Source: a virus
Lineage: Duplodnaviria; Heunggongvirae; Uroviricota; Caudoviricetes
Virus record (IMG/VR): IMGVR_UViG_3300045988_015629
DNA: 42,847 bases
Reading direction: 5' to 3' (one strand)
The translations under genes and the position numbers were made by a program. This document shows, one piece after another, positions 584 to 35,690 of the stretch. The notes under the pieces were generated by a model. It made no database searches and was not told the origin of the DNA. It worked only from the letters and a program-made list of their open reading frames with translations. Position 1 is the stretch's first letter, and every line of letters starts with the position of its first letter.

Positions 584-642
584 AATTTACCTCTTAGTAA
601 ATGAAAAGAGGGACCGAAGTCCATCTCGATTATATCTTAACC

Positions 643-2974: not shown

Positions 2975-2996
2975 GTTTCCCCTTTCTCGATAAGTA

Positions 2997-3020
2997 AAGC
3001 CCCGCCTTAAAGCGGGGCGC
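2997..3020 (-). terminator. terminator-like hairpin (GCCCCGC-loop-GCGGGGC) with a short U-tract, between conserved element A and the spanin start
   Basis: GC stem-loop then TTTACTT on the minus strand; weak U-run so possibly conditional. Confidence 0.4.
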
Positions 3021-3144
3021 TAGTCCTTATCATTTAAACATAGAAACGGCGTAATCTCAGTAAACCAGTTACTTTTTACACAAGCAATAGAGTATGGCCC
3101 TTCCGAACGCGTCAGCGTAACTACACTCAGGACTTACGTCCCGC

Positions 3145-3235
3145 TCCGTTACCTGCCCGCGCCGCGGTCGCTTGTTCATACTTCACAAGCTCAGGTGGAG
3201 CTTAGCACATTTTTGGTGAAAAGTCAACTATTCGA
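3145..3235 (-). promoter_or_regulatory. conserved promoter-plus-leader element A (TTGACT-N17-TAAGCT, then a 38-nt core identical to element B containing a hairpin)
   Basis: -35 at 3222-3227 and -10 at 3199-3204 on the minus strand; core 3158-3195 is identical to 14005-14042. Confidence 0.55.
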
Positions 3236-3292
3236 ATAGTTTATTCCAACATTTACAATTGAGTGGAATAACTGGAATAGTCACAGGCACTA

Positions 3293-3315
3293 AAAAGCCC
3301 CTTTCGGGGCTTCAG
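3293..3315 (-). terminator. rho-independent terminator after the Ig-like gene
   Basis: GCCCCGAAAGGGGC hairpin followed by TTTTT on the minus strand. Confidence 0.7.
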
Positions 3316-9946: not shown

Positions 9947-9976
9947 AAATATAATTGGCGTAAGAGTAATAGTCAA
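9947..9976 (-). promoter_or_regulatory. sigma70-like promoter TTGACT-N17-TATATT for the 9.9-8.3 kb minus-strand genes
   Basis: Near-consensus hexamers with 17-bp spacing, read on the minus strand. Confidence 0.45.
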
Positions 9977-9994
9977 CTAGTCATTACAGAAAAC

Positions 9995-10035
9995 AGATAA
10001 AAAAAATCCCGGCTGGGTCAGTGCCGGGATAAAAC
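9995..10035. terminator. strong bidirectional rho-independent terminator downstream of the endolysin gene
   Basis: CCCGGC-loop-GCCGGG hairpin flanked by an A8 run on one side and ATAAAA on the other. Confidence 0.7.
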
Positions 10036-12444: not shown

Positions 12445-12480
12445 GTGTAAATGAATAGTAGCTTATTCTATCTTAGTGTG
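12445..12480 (-). promoter_or_regulatory. conserved early-type promoter, divergent copy (TTGCAC-N17-TACTAT with embedded GAATAG dyad)
   Basis: Related to the 36-bp elements at 13744-13779 and 35655-35690. Confidence 0.45.
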
Positions 12481-12490
12481 CAAGTAAATT

Positions 12491-12664: not shown

Positions 12665-12798
12665 TGTTGCATCTCCTGCAATAGTCGCTTCGATTGTTGC
12701 GTTTGATGAAAGTGTCGCCTTTTGACGACACTAAGTTAAAGTTGTACGCTGCGGTGTAGCAGCGTAAGTCACTCAGTAAAATCCCAAACTATTGAACA

Positions 12799-12999: not shown

Positions 13000-13143
13000 A
13001 CCTCACACCTCTTTCAATCAAGGATTGCACACCAGCTTTCCACGCCCGCCACGCGAGACGCGTCTTAACGTTCAGGTACTCTTTCTTTGAACCCTTGTTA
13101 ACCGGCAGACCCTCGACCACAGCCCACCGTTCAAATGCTTCTC

Positions 13144-13332
13144 TCATACCAGAACCTCACATTCATCCCGATACACGAACAATAACGACCCTTTGTACTC
13201 AATCATAAAACCATAATGGTTGATGCTGAACGCCGGAAAAACATCACCTACCGAGATACCGAAATCTATAAGCCTGCGGTCAGTTATACGGACAAGCCTG
13301 CGGTCAGTTATACGGATTCGCATTAACGGCAA
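13144..13332 (-). CDS. hypothetical protein containing an 8-aa tandem repeat
   Basis: Encodes RITDRRLV RITDRRLI from a 24-bp tandem duplication at 13269-13316. Confidence 0.35.
   Translation of the reverse strand: MPLMRIRITDRRLVRITDRRLIDFGISVGDVFPAFSINHYGFMIEYKGSLLFVYRDECEVLV
13269..13316. repeat. 24-bp tandem direct repeat x2 (AGCCTGCGGTCAGTTATACGGA core)
   Basis: Two adjacent copies, 23/24 identical, read directly. Confidence 0.8.
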
Positions 13333-13526
13333 CCTCCCTCAGAGTCGTCGGCACAAGCATCACGATTCGATGCCGTTCGTATTGCTCGTAAGCTATTTAA
13401 CATTCGCTCGCTGGTAGATGTAATAACCGTTATACCGTCCGCCAGATGCACCTCGTAGCGTTCAGCTACGAAATATATTTCCTCGAAATCATGATGTTTC
13501 AGTTCTTCAAATAATTCTTCCATCAC
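13323..13526 (-). CDS. hypothetical acidic early protein (67 aa)
   Basis: ORF in early operon. Confidence 0.4.
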   Translation of the reverse strand: MMEELFEELKHHDFEEIYFVAERYEVHLADGITVITSTSERMLNSLRAIRTASNRDACADDSEGGCR

Positions 13527-13714
13527 TTCGCCCCTTTAAATTTAAAATTTTTGCCGATGAGTTTTAAGTTCTCCTCCGCTACGTATATTTGTGAATTTAC
13601 TCCTCTCACATTTTGCACGGTAACTACGTACTTTCCTGGAAATAAAGCAGATTTTAATTCAATTATGCCGTGTTTATCGTCGGAGTATTTAACCAACTGA
13701 CCACGTTTAAACAT
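13523..13714 (-). CDS. hypothetical early protein, first gene of the leftward early operon
   Basis: ATG at 13714 with AGGAG RBS; track ORF uses GTG at 13723. Confidence 0.45.
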   Translation of the reverse strand: MFKRGQLVKYSDDKHGIIELKSALFPGKYVVTVQNVRGVNSQIYVAEENLKLIGKNFKFKGAK

Positions 13715-13743
13715 AACCCTCACTCCTCTGTCTCGTTTCGATA

Positions 13744-13779
13744 AGTGAATAGTATCCTATTATGTTGGGGTGTGCAAGA
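13744..13779 (-). promoter_or_regulatory. conserved 36-bp early promoter element (minus-strand TTGCAC-N17-TACTAT; contains GAATAG-N4-CTATTA dyad)
   Basis: About 33/36 identical to 35655-35690 in the opposite orientation. Confidence 0.55.
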
Positions 13780-13822
13780 GAATAGTTACGTTGCCGTTGT
13801 GATTCTTTAGTTTAATGGGATA

Positions 13823-13880
13823 GCGAGCGAAACGAAACGAACGTGGTGCCGAAGGCACCAAGAGTGAGTGAGTGAGCTTG
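13823..13880. repeat. short tandem repeats flanking a hairpin: (CGAAA)2-3, GGTGCC-GAA-GGCACC, (GAGT)4
   Basis: Read directly; lies in the 457-bp divergent control region. Confidence 0.7.
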
Positions 13881-13989
13881 CGGATATAACCCACGGCAAA
13901 TCAGTAACTTAGATATTTAGGCGGGAATTACAATAGACTTTGGGCCTCCCAAACGCGCCAGCGAGCCTCACTCCACACGCTACACGTGC

Positions 13990-14080
13990 TCGTTTCGCCT
14001 GCCGCGCGCCGCGGTCGCTTGTTCATACTTCACAAGCTCAGGCTGAGCTTACCATATTTTTAAGTAAAAGTCAATACCGG
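13990..14080 (-). promoter_or_regulatory. conserved promoter-plus-leader element B (paralog of element A)
   Basis: -35 TTGACT at 14069-14074 and -10 TAAGCT at 14046-14051 on the minus strand; core 14005-14042 identical to 3158-3195. Confidence 0.55.
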
Positions 14081-14121
14081 TAGCATCTTTTGTATCTTAG
14101 TAACTTTGTGTGGTGTTTTGG

Positions 14122-14150
14122 TTGCTTTTACATTCCCGCTATCCTATACT
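14122..14150 (+). promoter_or_regulatory. sigma70-like promoter TTGCTT-N17-TATACT for the rightward replication operon
   Basis: Hexamers with 17-bp spacing about 35 bp upstream of the first plus-strand gene. Confidence 0.45.
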
Positions 14151-14181
14151 TGGCTTCACCAAACAAACAGGAGATTTAAAA

Positions 14182-14364
14182 ATGCAACATTACATGACCC
14201 AGAATGAAGTAGCCGAGCGTATCGGGGTGACACGTCAGACAATTAATAACTGGTTGCGCAGTGGTAAATTCCCGGATTGTTGTATTAAGGTTATGGGCCG
14301 CCGGATGCCGGGAACATTCGACCGTAATAAAGTTGAAGCGTGGATTAAGGAGAACGTGAAATGA
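14182..14364 (+). CDS. small HTH DNA-binding protein (excisionase/AlpA-like fold inferred)
   Basis: MTQNEVAERIGVTRQTINNWLRSGKFP helix-turn-helix signature; ATG at 14182 with GGAG RBS (track ORF uses GTG at 14110). Confidence 0.6.
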   Translation: MQHYMTQNEVAERIGVTRQTINNWLRSGKFPDCCIKVMGRRMPGTFDRNKVEAWIKENVK

Positions 14365-14594
14365 TTGGGCGTATGGGTTGTAGCTTCCGCGAAGACGGCA
14401 GCATTAAATATTATTTCAAGATTGCGTCAAATATAACCGACGATGGGTGTTATGTAGAACTTTTCCCTTATAACTTTTGTGGACCCACTAAAATAGTTAA
14501 ATTTTCTATAGAGGATATCCTTGATTGCAGTTTTTACCGTAGCGAAGGAGAGTGGGTTAATGCGGTGCGTAGACAAAAGAAACCCCAACGCTAG
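14361..14594 (+). CDS. hypothetical protein (77 aa), AT-rich
   Basis: ORF with noticeably lower GC than its neighbours. Confidence 0.4.
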   Translation: MIGRMGCSFREDGSIKYYFKIASNITDDGCYVELFPYNFCGPTKIVKFSIEDILDCSFYRSEGEWVNAVRRQKKPQR

Positions 14595-35647: not shown

Positions 35648-35690
35648 TTGCACACCCCAATATAATAGGGTACTATTCACTTACACCAAC
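35648..35690. promoter_or_regulatory. conserved 36-bp promoter element, divergent (plus-strand TTGCAC-N17-TACTAT for the island; minus-strand promoter for the chaperone/tape-measure operon)
   Basis: Reverse complement is about 33/36 identical to 13744-13779. Confidence 0.55.

What the first reader, a model, noticed from the sequence alone, without database searches (positions are those of the whole stretch)
13790..14180. 457-bp divergent control region containing element B, tandem short repeats and a hairpin
The region between the leftward early operon and the rightward replication operon carries, in order, the conserved early promoter element (13744-13779), tandem CGAAA repeats, a GGTGCC-GAA-GGCACC hairpin and a (GAGT)4 microsatellite-like run at about 13823-13880, then element B and a plus-strand TTGCTT-N17-TATACT promoter. 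The repeats flanking a hairpin next to the replication genes could be an origin or iteron cluster, or the terminator of the element-B transcript. Either way it is the densest non-coding signal in the genome.
Basis: seen in the sequence. Interest (0 to 1): 0.5.

Follow-up and report, generated by a model that had tools for sequence, protein, structure and literature searches.

The report
Leftward promoter, structured leader RNA, terminator
The "repeats plus hairpin" lie at the 3' end of a leftward transcription unit that starts inside element B, a conserved promoter fused to a roughly 105-nt structured RNA, undescribed as far as I could find, that also precedes the capsid operon of Kagunavirus and Jerseyvirus phages; nothing here looks like a replication origin.

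Summary
The sequence features are real at the stated coordinates, apart from small corrections. The origin/iteron reading is not supported.

- **Element B.** On the minus strand, element B (13928-14074) is a sigma-70 extended -10 promoter (TTGACT-17-TGnTAAGCT). It is followed directly by a ~105-nt RNA with a 5' hairpin and a long irregular arm.
- **Second copy.** A second copy lies at 3082-3227. It points at the spanin, scaffold and major-capsid genes.
- **Family.** A covariance model finds this RNA in Kagunavirus and, much diverged, in Jerseyvirus, always on the strand of the downstream genes. It has 10 base pairs with compensatory changes and folds far better on the minus strand.
- **Not previously catalogued.** It has no Rfam match and no match in E. 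coli genomes. It is not coding.
- **Hairpin and repeats.** The GGTGCC-GAA-GGCACC hairpin reads as a cUUCGg hairpin on the minus strand. The CGAAA repeats are its U-rich tail and (GAGT)4 is an upstream CUCA run. Both flanks are complementary to the Shine-Dalgarno region of the first leftward gene.
- **Relatives.** They vary the GAGT count or replace the whole 3' module with another GC hairpin.

Most likely function (inferred): a promoter-leader-terminator cassette whose read-through is controlled, as in lambda PR'/tR' or HK022 put.

The parts
14122..14150 (+). Rightward promoter TTGCTT-N17-TATACT, upstream of the HTH gene (ATG 14182) and the replication operon
   Evidence: Read from the sequence. 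Conserved in relatives that carry copy 1.
14046..14074 (-). Element-B promoter, copy 1: -35 TTGACT (14074-14069), 17-nt spacer, TGg, -10 TAAGCT (14051-14046)
   Evidence: The hexamers and TG are invariant while the spacer varies across 30 distinct upstream sequences. The pattern occurs exactly twice in the window.
13928..14045 (-). Element-B leader RNA, copy 1. H1 pairs 14037-14032 with 14022-14017. The long arm P2/P3 pairs 14014-13997 with 13964-13949. The apical hairpin H3 pairs 13988-13983 with 13979-13974.
   Evidence: Covariance model R1 scores 109.6 bits, E 4e-28.
13862..13877 (-). (GAGT)n run, which reads CUCACUCACUCACUC in the leftward RNA, directly 5' of the hairpin. It is complementary to the Shine-Dalgarno sequence GGAGUGAGG of the first leftward gene.
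   Evidence: TRF gives 3.8 copies. The copy number is higher in a Golestan-like relative, with 3 versus 6 TCAC units counted by regex. Duplex with the UTR: p=0.002.
13845..13859 (-). GC hairpin GGUGC-C(UUCG)G-GCACC, terminator-like on the minus strand
   Evidence: Flagged on the minus strand by the terminator scan. Relatives carry non-homologous GC hairpins at the same position.
13826..13844 (-). U-rich tail ACGUUCGUUUCGUUUCGC, the complement of the plus-strand CGAAA repeats. It is complementary to CGAAACGAGAC in the downstream 5'UTR.
   Evidence: (inverted repeat I3).
13749..13777 (-). Early promoter element TTGCAC-N17-TACTAT, driving the leftward early genes
   Evidence: Three exact-pattern copies in the window (12455-12483, 13749-13777, 35648-35676) against 0.12 expected.
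13714..13740 (-). 5'UTR, Shine-Dalgarno sequence and ATG of the first leftward gene (CGAAACGAGACAGAGGAGUGAGGGUUAUG)
   Evidence: Nearly invariant in the Kagunavirus relatives aligned. It pairs with the repeat flanks in the predicted fold of a read-through transcript.
3199..3227 (-). Element-B promoter, copy 2 (TTGACT-17-TGcTAAGCT)
   Evidence: The fBC-Eco01 record carries a PHIRE-predicted minus-strand host promoter directly upstream of the leader match, at the position I assign to this promoter.
3082..3198 (-). Element-B leader RNA, copy 2
   Evidence: R1 scores 144 bits, E 1e-37. The region is at least 95% identical in about 180 phage records.
2989..3018 (-). Terminator-like hairpin GCCCCGC-UUUAA-GCGGGGC plus UUUACUUAUC, ending 14 nt before the spanin Shine-Dalgarno sequence (ATG 2974)
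   Evidence: The stem covaries: GCCCUGC/GCAGGGC, GCCCGGC/GCCGGGC and GCCCGAC/GUCGGGC.
3292..3313 (-). Intrinsic terminator that ends the preceding late operon, just upstream of copy 2
   Evidence: Read from the sequence. The scan lists the same palindrome on the plus strand.

Best explanation
**Layout.** The region is a divergent control region with three promoters: one rightward (14122-14150) and two leftward.

**Element B.** The distal leftward promoter is the start of element B. It is a near-consensus sigma-70 extended -10 promoter. Transcription is predicted to begin at about 14039, directly into a conserved ~100-nt structured RNA made of a 5'-terminal hairpin H1 and a long irregular arm P2-P3-H3.

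**3' module.** About 70 nt further on lies a cUUCGg hairpin with a U-rich tail. It is followed by the early promoter and the leftward genes.

**Second copy.** The same promoter-leader-hairpin cassette sits directly in front of the spanin, scaffold and major-capsid operon at 2989-3227. That is its ancestral site. It is found in many Kagunavirus records and, in diverged form, in the Jerseyvirus genomes examined.

**Shown here.**
- The promoter is conserved.
- The RNA structure is supported by covariation, and its strand is established.
- The element is non-coding.
- A GC hairpin lies downstream in every variant.

**Inferred mechanism.** The hairpin stops most transcripts, giving a short RNA of about 200 nt. 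The leader allows regulated read-through into the downstream genes. It could do this by modifying RNA polymerase itself, as HK022 put does, or as the loading site of a phage factor, as lambda Q or AlpA do. A candidate factor is the early excisionase-family HTH protein encoded next door at 14182-14364.

**Lineage-specific feature.** In this phage lineage the sequences flanking the hairpin can also pair with the Shine-Dalgarno region of the first leftward gene in read-through transcripts. This would silence its translation from this promoter only.
For: **Promoter.** The -35, TG and -10 are invariant while the spacer varies across 30 distinct upstream sequences. Jerseyvirus keeps TAGAyT-17-TGyTACGCT.

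**Strand.** The consensus fold is -27.6 kcal/mol on the minus strand and -13.7 on the plus strand. There are invariant tandem G-U pairs and a U-A to U-G change that pair only on the minus strand. The element always lies on the strand of the downstream genes.

**Structure.**
- On a MAFFT-only alignment, 96.9% of cells are paired, 0 of 500 shuffles reach this, and slid controls give 30-46%.
- On 36 distinct sequences, 10 pairs show double-sided changes. One pair shows C-G, U-A and A-U.
- H1 and H3 are entirely re-sequenced in Jerseyvirus yet still pair.

**Family.** R1 hits only the two copies in the window, at 144 and 110 bits; the next best hit is 12 bits. It hits Jerseyvirus at 36-43 bits.

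**Conservation.** Copy 2 is at least 95% identical in about 180 records.

**Hairpins.**
- The scan flags both hairpins on the minus strand.
- The copy-2 stem covaries.
- Other Kagunaviruses carry a different GC hairpin followed by UCUUUU at the copy-1 site.

**Need for read-through.**
- I saw no other promoter between the copy-2 hairpin and the spanin gene, which starts 14 nt after the U-rich tail.
- A further cUUCGg terminator follows the capsid gene.

**Candidate factor.** In a related Kagunavirus, an HTH-domain gene is the only functionally annotated gene among the four classed as early by RNA-seq (PMC12645636). I did not verify that it is the orthologue of the window's HTH gene.

**Anti-SD pairing.** The duplex is -29.8 kcal/mol against -20.3 +/- 3.0 for shuffles, p=0.002.
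Against: - There are no transcript data. The start site, the 3' end and any read-through are all predictions.
- The U tracts are imperfect. In copy 1 they are interrupted by C and G, and in Jerseyvirus the tail is UUAGCGUAU. The hairpins may therefore be weak terminators or serve another purpose.
- The leftward operon has promoters of its own (13749-13777, 12455-12483, 9948-9976), so copy 1 is not obviously needed for its expression.
- Bas71-type phages do without element B at this site.
- There is no sequence or structure similarity to HK022 put.
- No recognised Q-type antiterminator was found among the 20 early proteins scanned. The HTH protein shows only generic excisionase/HTH similarity.
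- The anti-SD complementarity is significant only in this lineage.
- Sequences in the alignments are closely related, which inflates shuffle statistics.
Confidence: 0.5

Rival explanations
1. Element B encodes a stand-alone small RNA of about 200 nt, running from its promoter to the hairpin. It acts in trans on host or phage targets. The two copies are paralogous sRNA genes, and read-through is incidental.
For: - Each unit has its own strong promoter and a downstream hairpin about 200 nt away in both copies.
- Sequence conservation is extreme, beyond what pairing alone requires.
- The 3' parts differ between the copies, as expected for different targets.
Against: - In every genome examined the ancestral copy lies directly upstream of, and on the same strand as, the capsid operon, with the hairpin 14 nt before the Shine-Dalgarno sequence. 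That is the layout of a leader, not of a free-standing gene.
- The conserved part is the 5' structured domain, not a single-stranded seed.
- The Jerseyvirus hairpin lacks a usable U tract.
Confidence: 0.2
2. The leader is a 5' stabiliser or processing module for highly expressed late mRNA. A 5'-terminal hairpin and a compact fold would protect against RNase E. There would be no effect on termination.
For: - H1 starts about 2 nt after the predicted start site.
- The cassette precedes the major capsid gene, which is expected to be among the most highly expressed late genes.
- Poor U tracts suggest the downstream hairpin may be a stability element.
Against: - A stabiliser needs only a 5' hairpin. 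It would not need a 100-nt fold with invariant internal loops and tandem G-U pairs conserved across genera.
- H1 is the least conserved part in sequence.
- It does not explain the GC hairpin placed between the leader and the genes in every variant.
Confidence: 0.15
3. The region is the replication origin. The short repeats would be iterons and the hairpin or inverted repeats a protein-binding or unwinding element next to the helicase-primase operon.
For: - The cumulative GC-skew minimum and the lowest GC content (0.445) fall at 13-14.5 kb.
- There is an AT-rich spacer at 14050-14120 between the divergent promoters.
- The region is adjacent to the replication genes.
Against: - The skew switch coincides with the switch in gene orientation, as it does again at 25 kb, so it is not diagnostic.
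- No direct-repeat family longer than 11 nt was found, and TRF reports only GAGT x3.8.
- No DnaA box lies in the region.
- The repeat module is variable or replaced in relatives.
- The features are explained by strand-specific RNA signals.
- An origin elsewhere in the AT-rich spacer is not excluded.
Confidence: 0.05
4. Element B encodes small proteins, as some GenBank records annotate: Sciku_053 on the plus strand and fBCEco01_09 on the minus strand. In the window the corresponding ORFs are 13940-14083 (+) and 13928-14026 (-).
For: Open frames of 32-47 codons exist on both strands and are annotated in relatives.
Against: - The minus-strand ATG lies in the H1 loop. It is lost in the fFiEco03-type and Jerseyvirus variants.
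- The two copies in this genome differ by frame-shifting 1- and 2-nt indels.
- Substitutions are compensatory for base pairs, not synonymous.
- There is no convincing Shine-Dalgarno sequence.
Confidence: 0.02

Closest known systems
HK022 putL/putR (cis-acting polymerase-utilisation RNAs)
   Same: - There are two copies per genome.
- Each lies just downstream of a sigma-70 promoter, and the structure begins within a few nt of the start site.
- The architecture has two arms with internal loops and non-canonical pairs.
- Terminators lie downstream.
- No dedicated antiterminator protein is recognisable.

The put features are taken from PMC9378689.
   Different: - There is no detectable sequence or structure similarity.
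- The RNA is about 100 nt rather than about 70 nt.
- It occurs in a virulent siphophage and serves a late (capsid) operon rather than early operons.
- Its function is untested.
Lambda PR'-6S RNA-tR' late unit with Q (and the AlpA-type antiterminators of the excisionase-like HTH class)
   Same: - A constitutive-looking promoter with TTGACT at -35, a short transcript of about 200 nt, and then a terminator directly in front of lysis and structural late genes.
- A small early HTH protein is encoded nearby.

The comparison with lambda and AlpA rests on my own knowledge, not on a tool result.
   Different: - No Q or AlpA family hit was found for any scanned protein.
- As far as I know, Q systems do not have a leader RNA with a conserved, covarying structure.
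Processive-antitermination RNAs of other mobile elements (Tn916 canT, conAn, Bacillus EAR)
   Same: They are promoter-proximal structured RNAs in mobile elements that let polymerase pass terminators. The papers were found (PMC11658703, PMC8191782).
   Different: They come from Gram-positive hosts and are unrelated in sequence. I did not compare them structurally.

Membership tests
Sigma-70 extended -10 promoter | A -35 hexamer, a 17-nt spacer, TG at -15/-14 and a -10 hexamer with A at position 2 and T at position 6, with the hexamers conserved and the spacer free to vary | tested here: met
   TTGACT-17-TGnTAAGCT is present in all Kagunavirus copies with variable spacers. Jerseyvirus has TAGAyT-17-TGyTACGCT. 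The pattern occurs twice in the window against 0.24 expected.
Structured non-coding RNA (new family) | A conserved secondary structure supported by compensatory changes, strand-specific, and not coding | tested here: met
   10 pairs with double-sided changes, 96.7% of cells paired, 0 of 500 shuffles reaching the observed covariation, and slid controls at or below 46%. The minus strand folds at -27.6 and the plus strand at -13.7 kcal/mol. The ATG is lost and indels shift the frame.
Any Rfam family | A match at or near the family's gathering score | tested here: not met
   No hit at gathering thresholds over the whole window. The best lenient hits are 16-17 bits, well below threshold.
HK022 put RNA | Sequence and structure homology to putL/putR | tested here: not met
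   Model R1 was run over HK022 25-33 kb, which I take to contain putL and putR. The record does not annotate them, so their presence in that stretch rests on my own knowledge. The best score was 5.5 bits, E 2.3. I did not run the reverse test, a put model against the window.
HK022 put RNA | Factor-independent suppression of terminators through binding to the beta' zinc-binding domain | not testable with these tools
   This needs in-vitro transcription or rpoC zinc-binding-domain mutants.
Intrinsic terminator | A GC-rich stem-loop directly followed by a U tract | tested here: inconclusive
   Copy 2 has 8 bp (7 GC) followed by UUUACUUAUC. Copy 1 has 7 bp followed by CGUUCGUUUC. Jerseyvirus has a good stem but the tail UUAGCGUAU.
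Iteron-type or DnaA-dependent origin | Several direct repeats of about 17-22 bp, DnaA boxes and an AT-rich unwinding element, conserved among relatives | tested here: not met
   There are no such repeats and no DnaA box in 13700-14200. The repeat module is variable or replaced in relatives. An AT-rich spacer is present but is shared with the divergent promoters.
Lambda Q / AlpA-type antitermination system | A phage-encoded antiterminator protein of a recognised family | tested here: inconclusive
   Twenty early ORFs were scanned and gave no Q or AlpA family hit. The neighbouring 60-aa protein is a generic excisionase-family HTH (PF12728, TIGR01764). Not all ORFs were scanned.

The most novel reading that the evidence does not exclude
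The element-B leader is a self-sufficient RNA that binds E. coli or Salmonella RNA polymerase as it emerges and makes it resistant to terminators. It would be a second, unrelated family of put-like RNAs. Here it would drive capsid and lysis gene expression in a large group of virulent phages that are used therapeutically.
Probability: 0.2. Interest if true: 0.8.

Novelty: new variant of a known kind. Interest (0 to 1): 0.5.

Why it matters
Kagunavirus and Jerseyvirus phages are isolated very often for therapy and food safety, yet how they time late gene expression is unknown. The cassette in front of the major capsid operon is almost identical in about 180 genomes. It has a covarying RNA fold, is absent from Rfam, and is annotated in GenBank only as spurious small ORFs.

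If it controls read-through, it would be the switch for capsid and lysis expression in this subfamily. It would also be a compact, possibly factor-independent regulatory part. Even if it is only a leader, the annotation of the region should change: there are no genes there, but a promoter, an RNA and a terminator.

Tried and rejected
**Plus-strand reading of element B.** The hairpin AAGCTCAGGCTGAGCTT followed by ATTTTT at 14034-14050 looks like a plus-strand terminator.
- The stem is perfect only in this lineage. It is reduced to 6 bp per arm in copy 2 and shifted by a 1-nt deletion in fFiEco03-type copies.
- It overlaps the minus-strand -10.
- No plus-strand promoter lies upstream.
- The plus strand folds poorly.

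**tRNA, tmRNA and Rfam families.** None were found.

**Prophage or host origin.** There is no match in 5,426 E. coli genomes.

**Long-range pairing within copy 1.** I tested whether the leader pairs with the flanks of the hairpin as a general switch. The support is modest (z -2.3 and -3.1 in two lineages), it is absent in the L022 type, and it is not type-specific.

**Flanking inverted repeats.** The 11-nt inverted repeats 13815-13825 and 14137-14147 could suggest a mobile insertion, but the number expected by chance is about 1 (my own estimate).

**-10-like pause element in the H1 loop.** AAGUAU fits NANNAT as in putL, but it is not conserved in fFiEco03-type or Jerseyvirus copies.

**MAFFT alignment A3.** The variable middle was misaligned, so I used the model-based alignment A4 instead.

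**Literature.** I found no description of the element. The one Kagunavirus RNA-seq paper does not mention intergenic or non-coding transcripts.

Full report
**What the window is.** The 1-kb stretch around the finding matches 269 phage records. The closest is Escherichia phage vB_EcoS_fTaEco01 at 97%, so the window is a Kagunavirus-like siphophage of the subfamily Guernseyvirinae. An annotated relative, Sciku, shows the layout. To the left run small early genes, then a protease, holins and endolysin. To the right run a small HTH gene, helicase-primase, exonuclease, SSB and DNA polymerase.

**Checking the observation.** Every listed feature is present.
- The early promoter element TTGCAC-N17-TACTAT lies on the minus strand at 13749-13777. 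It has 3 copies in the window against 0.12 expected.
- CGAAACGAAACGAAC lies at 13828-13842.
- The hairpin GGTGCC-GAA-GGCACC lies at 13845-13859.
- GAGT x3.8 lies at 13862-13876.
- Element B (13931-14074) is 77% identical to 3085-3227.
- TTGCTT-N17-TATACT lies at 14122-14150.
- Considered only as repeats, the two short repeats are weak. Tandem Repeats Finder reports only GAGT, at the minimum score, and no direct-repeat family exceeds 11 nt.

**Element B is a leftward promoter.** On the minus strand, both copies begin with TTGACT, a 17-nt spacer, TGn and TAAGCT (14074-14046 and 3227-3199). This pattern occurs exactly twice in the window. I extracted the sequence upstream of 58 homologues. Across the 30 distinct versions the two hexamers and the TG do not change, while the spacer and the n do. 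The diverged Jerseyvirus versions keep TAGAyT-17-TGyTACGCT. That is the pattern expected of a functional extended -10 promoter. The fBC-Eco01 record also carries a PHIRE-predicted minus-strand host promoter just upstream of the leader match, where I place this promoter.

**Element B continues as a structured RNA on the minus strand.**
- An exact-word scan of IMG/VR returned 46 copies with 22 distinct cores.
- RNAalifold on the MAFFT alignment gave two features: a 5' hairpin (H1), and a long arm of two helices (P2, P3) capped by a hairpin (H3).
- The consensus energy was -27.6 kcal/mol on the minus strand and -13.7 on the plus strand.
- 96.9% of cells are paired. No shuffle out of 500 reached the observed pairing or covariation. 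Sliding the partners by 1-3 columns dropped pairing to 30-46%.

**More diverged copies strengthen the structure.**
- Diverged copies from fFiEco03, NRG857CP3 and phiEc3 added a third Watson-Crick type at one P2 pair (C-G, U-A, A-U), a U-A to G-C swap in P3, and a new H3. They also added a U-A to U-G change in H1 that pairs only on the minus strand.
- A covariance model built from the first alignment found only the two copies in the window, at 144 and 110 bits. The next hit scored 12 bits.
- The model then found a much more diverged homologue in Jerseyvirus vB_SenS-Ent2, at 43 bits and E 1e-9. It lies between the head-decoration gene and the spanin genes, on their strand. Nine further Jerseyvirus contigs matched.
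- In the Jerseyvirus copies H1 (ACGCU-UUC-AGCGU), P3 (CGCG/CGCG) and H3 (GGGCGC/GCGCCC, with C-G to U-A among them) have entirely different sequences but the same pairing.
- On the model-based alignment of 36 distinct sequences, 96.7% of cells pair and 10 pairs carry double-sided changes.

**Caveats on the structure.**
- The sequences are related, and that alignment is fitted to the model.
- The outer 3-bp helix never varies and probably lies upstream of the start site.

**Element B is not coding.** The minus-strand ATG (14026) sits in the H1 loop and is absent from the fFiEco03-type and Jerseyvirus copies. The two copies in this genome differ by 1- and 2-nt indels. The small ORFs annotated over the element in some GenBank records are therefore probably spurious.

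**Where the copies sit.**
- Copy 2 is the ancestral one. Its 181-nt region is at least 95% identical in about 180 Kagunavirus and Salmonella-phage records.
- In the annotated genomes examined it lies after the terminator of the preceding late operon and directly before i-spanin, o-spanin, scaffold and major capsid protein.
- Copy 1, the subject of the finding, exists only in part of the genus. 40 records cover at least 80% of the intergenic query. Others keep only its two ends.
- Bas71 carries a different minus-strand promoter, a long hairpin and a GC hairpin followed by UUU at the same place.
- The element is absent from 5,426 E. coli genomes and from Rfam.

**What the hairpin and the repeats are.**
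- On the minus strand the hairpin is GGUGC-C(UUCG)G-GCACC. The CGAAA repeats become its U-rich tail ACGUUCGUUUCGUUUCGC. (GAGT)4 becomes CUCACUCACUCACUC just 5' of it.
- The terminator scan flags it on that strand, about 200 nt from the predicted start.
- Copy 2 has GCCCCGC-UUUAA-GCGGGGC followed by UUUACUUAUC at the same distance, ending 14 nt before the spanin Shine-Dalgarno sequence. That stem covaries among relatives.
- Other copy-1 lineages replace the whole module with GGGGUGGGC-UAAC-GCCCACCC inside an outer stem followed by UCUUUU.
- The GAGT count differs between relatives: 3 versus 6 regex units.
- A module that keeps its shape and position while its sequence is swapped behaves like a terminator, not like iterons.

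**An extra, lineage-specific feature.**
- The two flanks of the hairpin are complementary to the 5'UTR and Shine-Dalgarno sequence of the first leftward gene (CGAAACGAGAC-AGA-GGAGUGAGGG, 13740-13717).
- The duplex energy is -29.8 kcal/mol against -20.3 +/- 3.0 for 1000 shuffles (p=0.002).
- In the predicted fold of a read-through transcript, the leader keeps its conserved fold while the Shine-Dalgarno sequence is paired. A transcript from the proximal early promoter leaves it free.
- Other lineages do not show this significantly.
- The same flanks also match two segments of this lineage's own leader.
- I cannot tell a translational clamp from the relic of a local inverted duplication.

**Mechanism.** Shown here are a conserved promoter, a conserved strand-specific RNA fold beginning at the start site, a GC hairpin downstream in every variant, and late genes right behind it. 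The rest is inferred.
- I saw no other promoter between the copy-2 hairpin and the spanin gene. The scaffold and capsid genes therefore appear to be reached only by polymerases that pass this hairpin.
- Another cUUCGg terminator follows the capsid gene.
- This is the layout of lambda PR'-6S-tR', which I compare from my own knowledge.
- With two promoter-proximal structured copies, it also resembles HK022 putL/putR (PMC9378689).
- I therefore favour regulated read-through. It could be intrinsic to the RNA or depend on a phage factor.
- The nearest candidate factor is the 60-aa excisionase-family HTH protein encoded at 14182-14364. In Kagunavirus K1B4, an HTH-domain gene is the only annotated gene among the four classed as early (PMC12645636). 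I did not verify that it is the orthologue.

**Evidence against this mechanism.**
- The U tracts are imperfect.
- The leftward operon has its own promoters.
- There is no similarity to put.
- No Q-type protein was found among the 20 ORFs scanned.
- There are no transcript data.

**Origin of replication.** The cumulative GC-skew minimum and the lowest GC content fall here. However, the skew follows gene orientation throughout the window. There are no iterons or DnaA boxes, and the flagged module is not conserved.

**Verdict.** The origin idea is not supported. The terminator idea is right once the strand is corrected. Its function is still to be tested.

Noticed in passing
window 3228-3279 (and L049 5700-5760): Directly upstream of the copy-2 -35 lies a perfect palindrome, CTATTCGAATAG (3228-3239). 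It is followed by TTATTCC (3241-3247), GGAATAA (3265-3271) and GGAATA (3274-3279). Jerseyvirus Ent2 keeps TTATTCC-AG-TTATTCC-N17-GGAATA although the surrounding sequence has diverged. This is a candidate binding site for a regulator of the late promoter.
   Followed up: partly
window 604-627, minus strand: A cUUCGg hairpin (GAG-GGAC-UUCG-GUCC-CUC) followed by UUUU lies right after the major capsid gene. It is an internal terminator in the late operon downstream of copy 2.
   Followed up: no
window 9948-10030, minus strand: A strong intrinsic terminator (CCCGGC...GCCGGG followed by eight U, about 10030-9999) lies after the endolysin gene. It is immediately followed by a promoter, TTGACT-17-TATATT (9976-9948). 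The simple scan missed the terminator because its loop is 9 nt.
   Followed up: no
window 12455-12483, minus strand: A third copy of the early promoter element TTGCAC-N17-TACTAT lies inside the leftward operon. It is preceded by two weak hairpins at about 12700-12770.
   Followed up: no
L045 (Bas71, PQ850615) 392-873: At the site of copy 1, Bas71-type Kagunaviruses carry a non-homologous cassette on the same strand. It has a promoter-like sequence, a long hairpin (GUUGACGAA...UUCGUCAAC) and GGGCAGGC-UUAG-GGCCUGCCC followed by UUU. Two short plus-strand ORFs are annotated over it.
   Followed up: partly
window 13964-13998 versus 13717-13740: In this lineage, two segments of the copy-1 leader (GCGAAACGAGC and GGAGUGAGG) closely resemble the 5'UTR and Shine-Dalgarno sequence of the first leftward gene (CGAAACGAGAC...GGAGUGAGGG). 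Copy 2 has different sequences at these positions. This suggests local sequence exchange or a three-way pairing switch.
   Followed up: partly
window 13001-14500: The global minimum of cumulative GC skew (-0.90) and the lowest GC content (0.445) fall in this region. They coincide with the switch in gene orientation.
   Followed up: partly
L001 5493-5600; L044 1510-1626; L045 422-790: GenBank records annotate hypothetical proteins of 33-59 aa over element B or its replacement. Comparison shows these frames are not conserved.
   Followed up: yes
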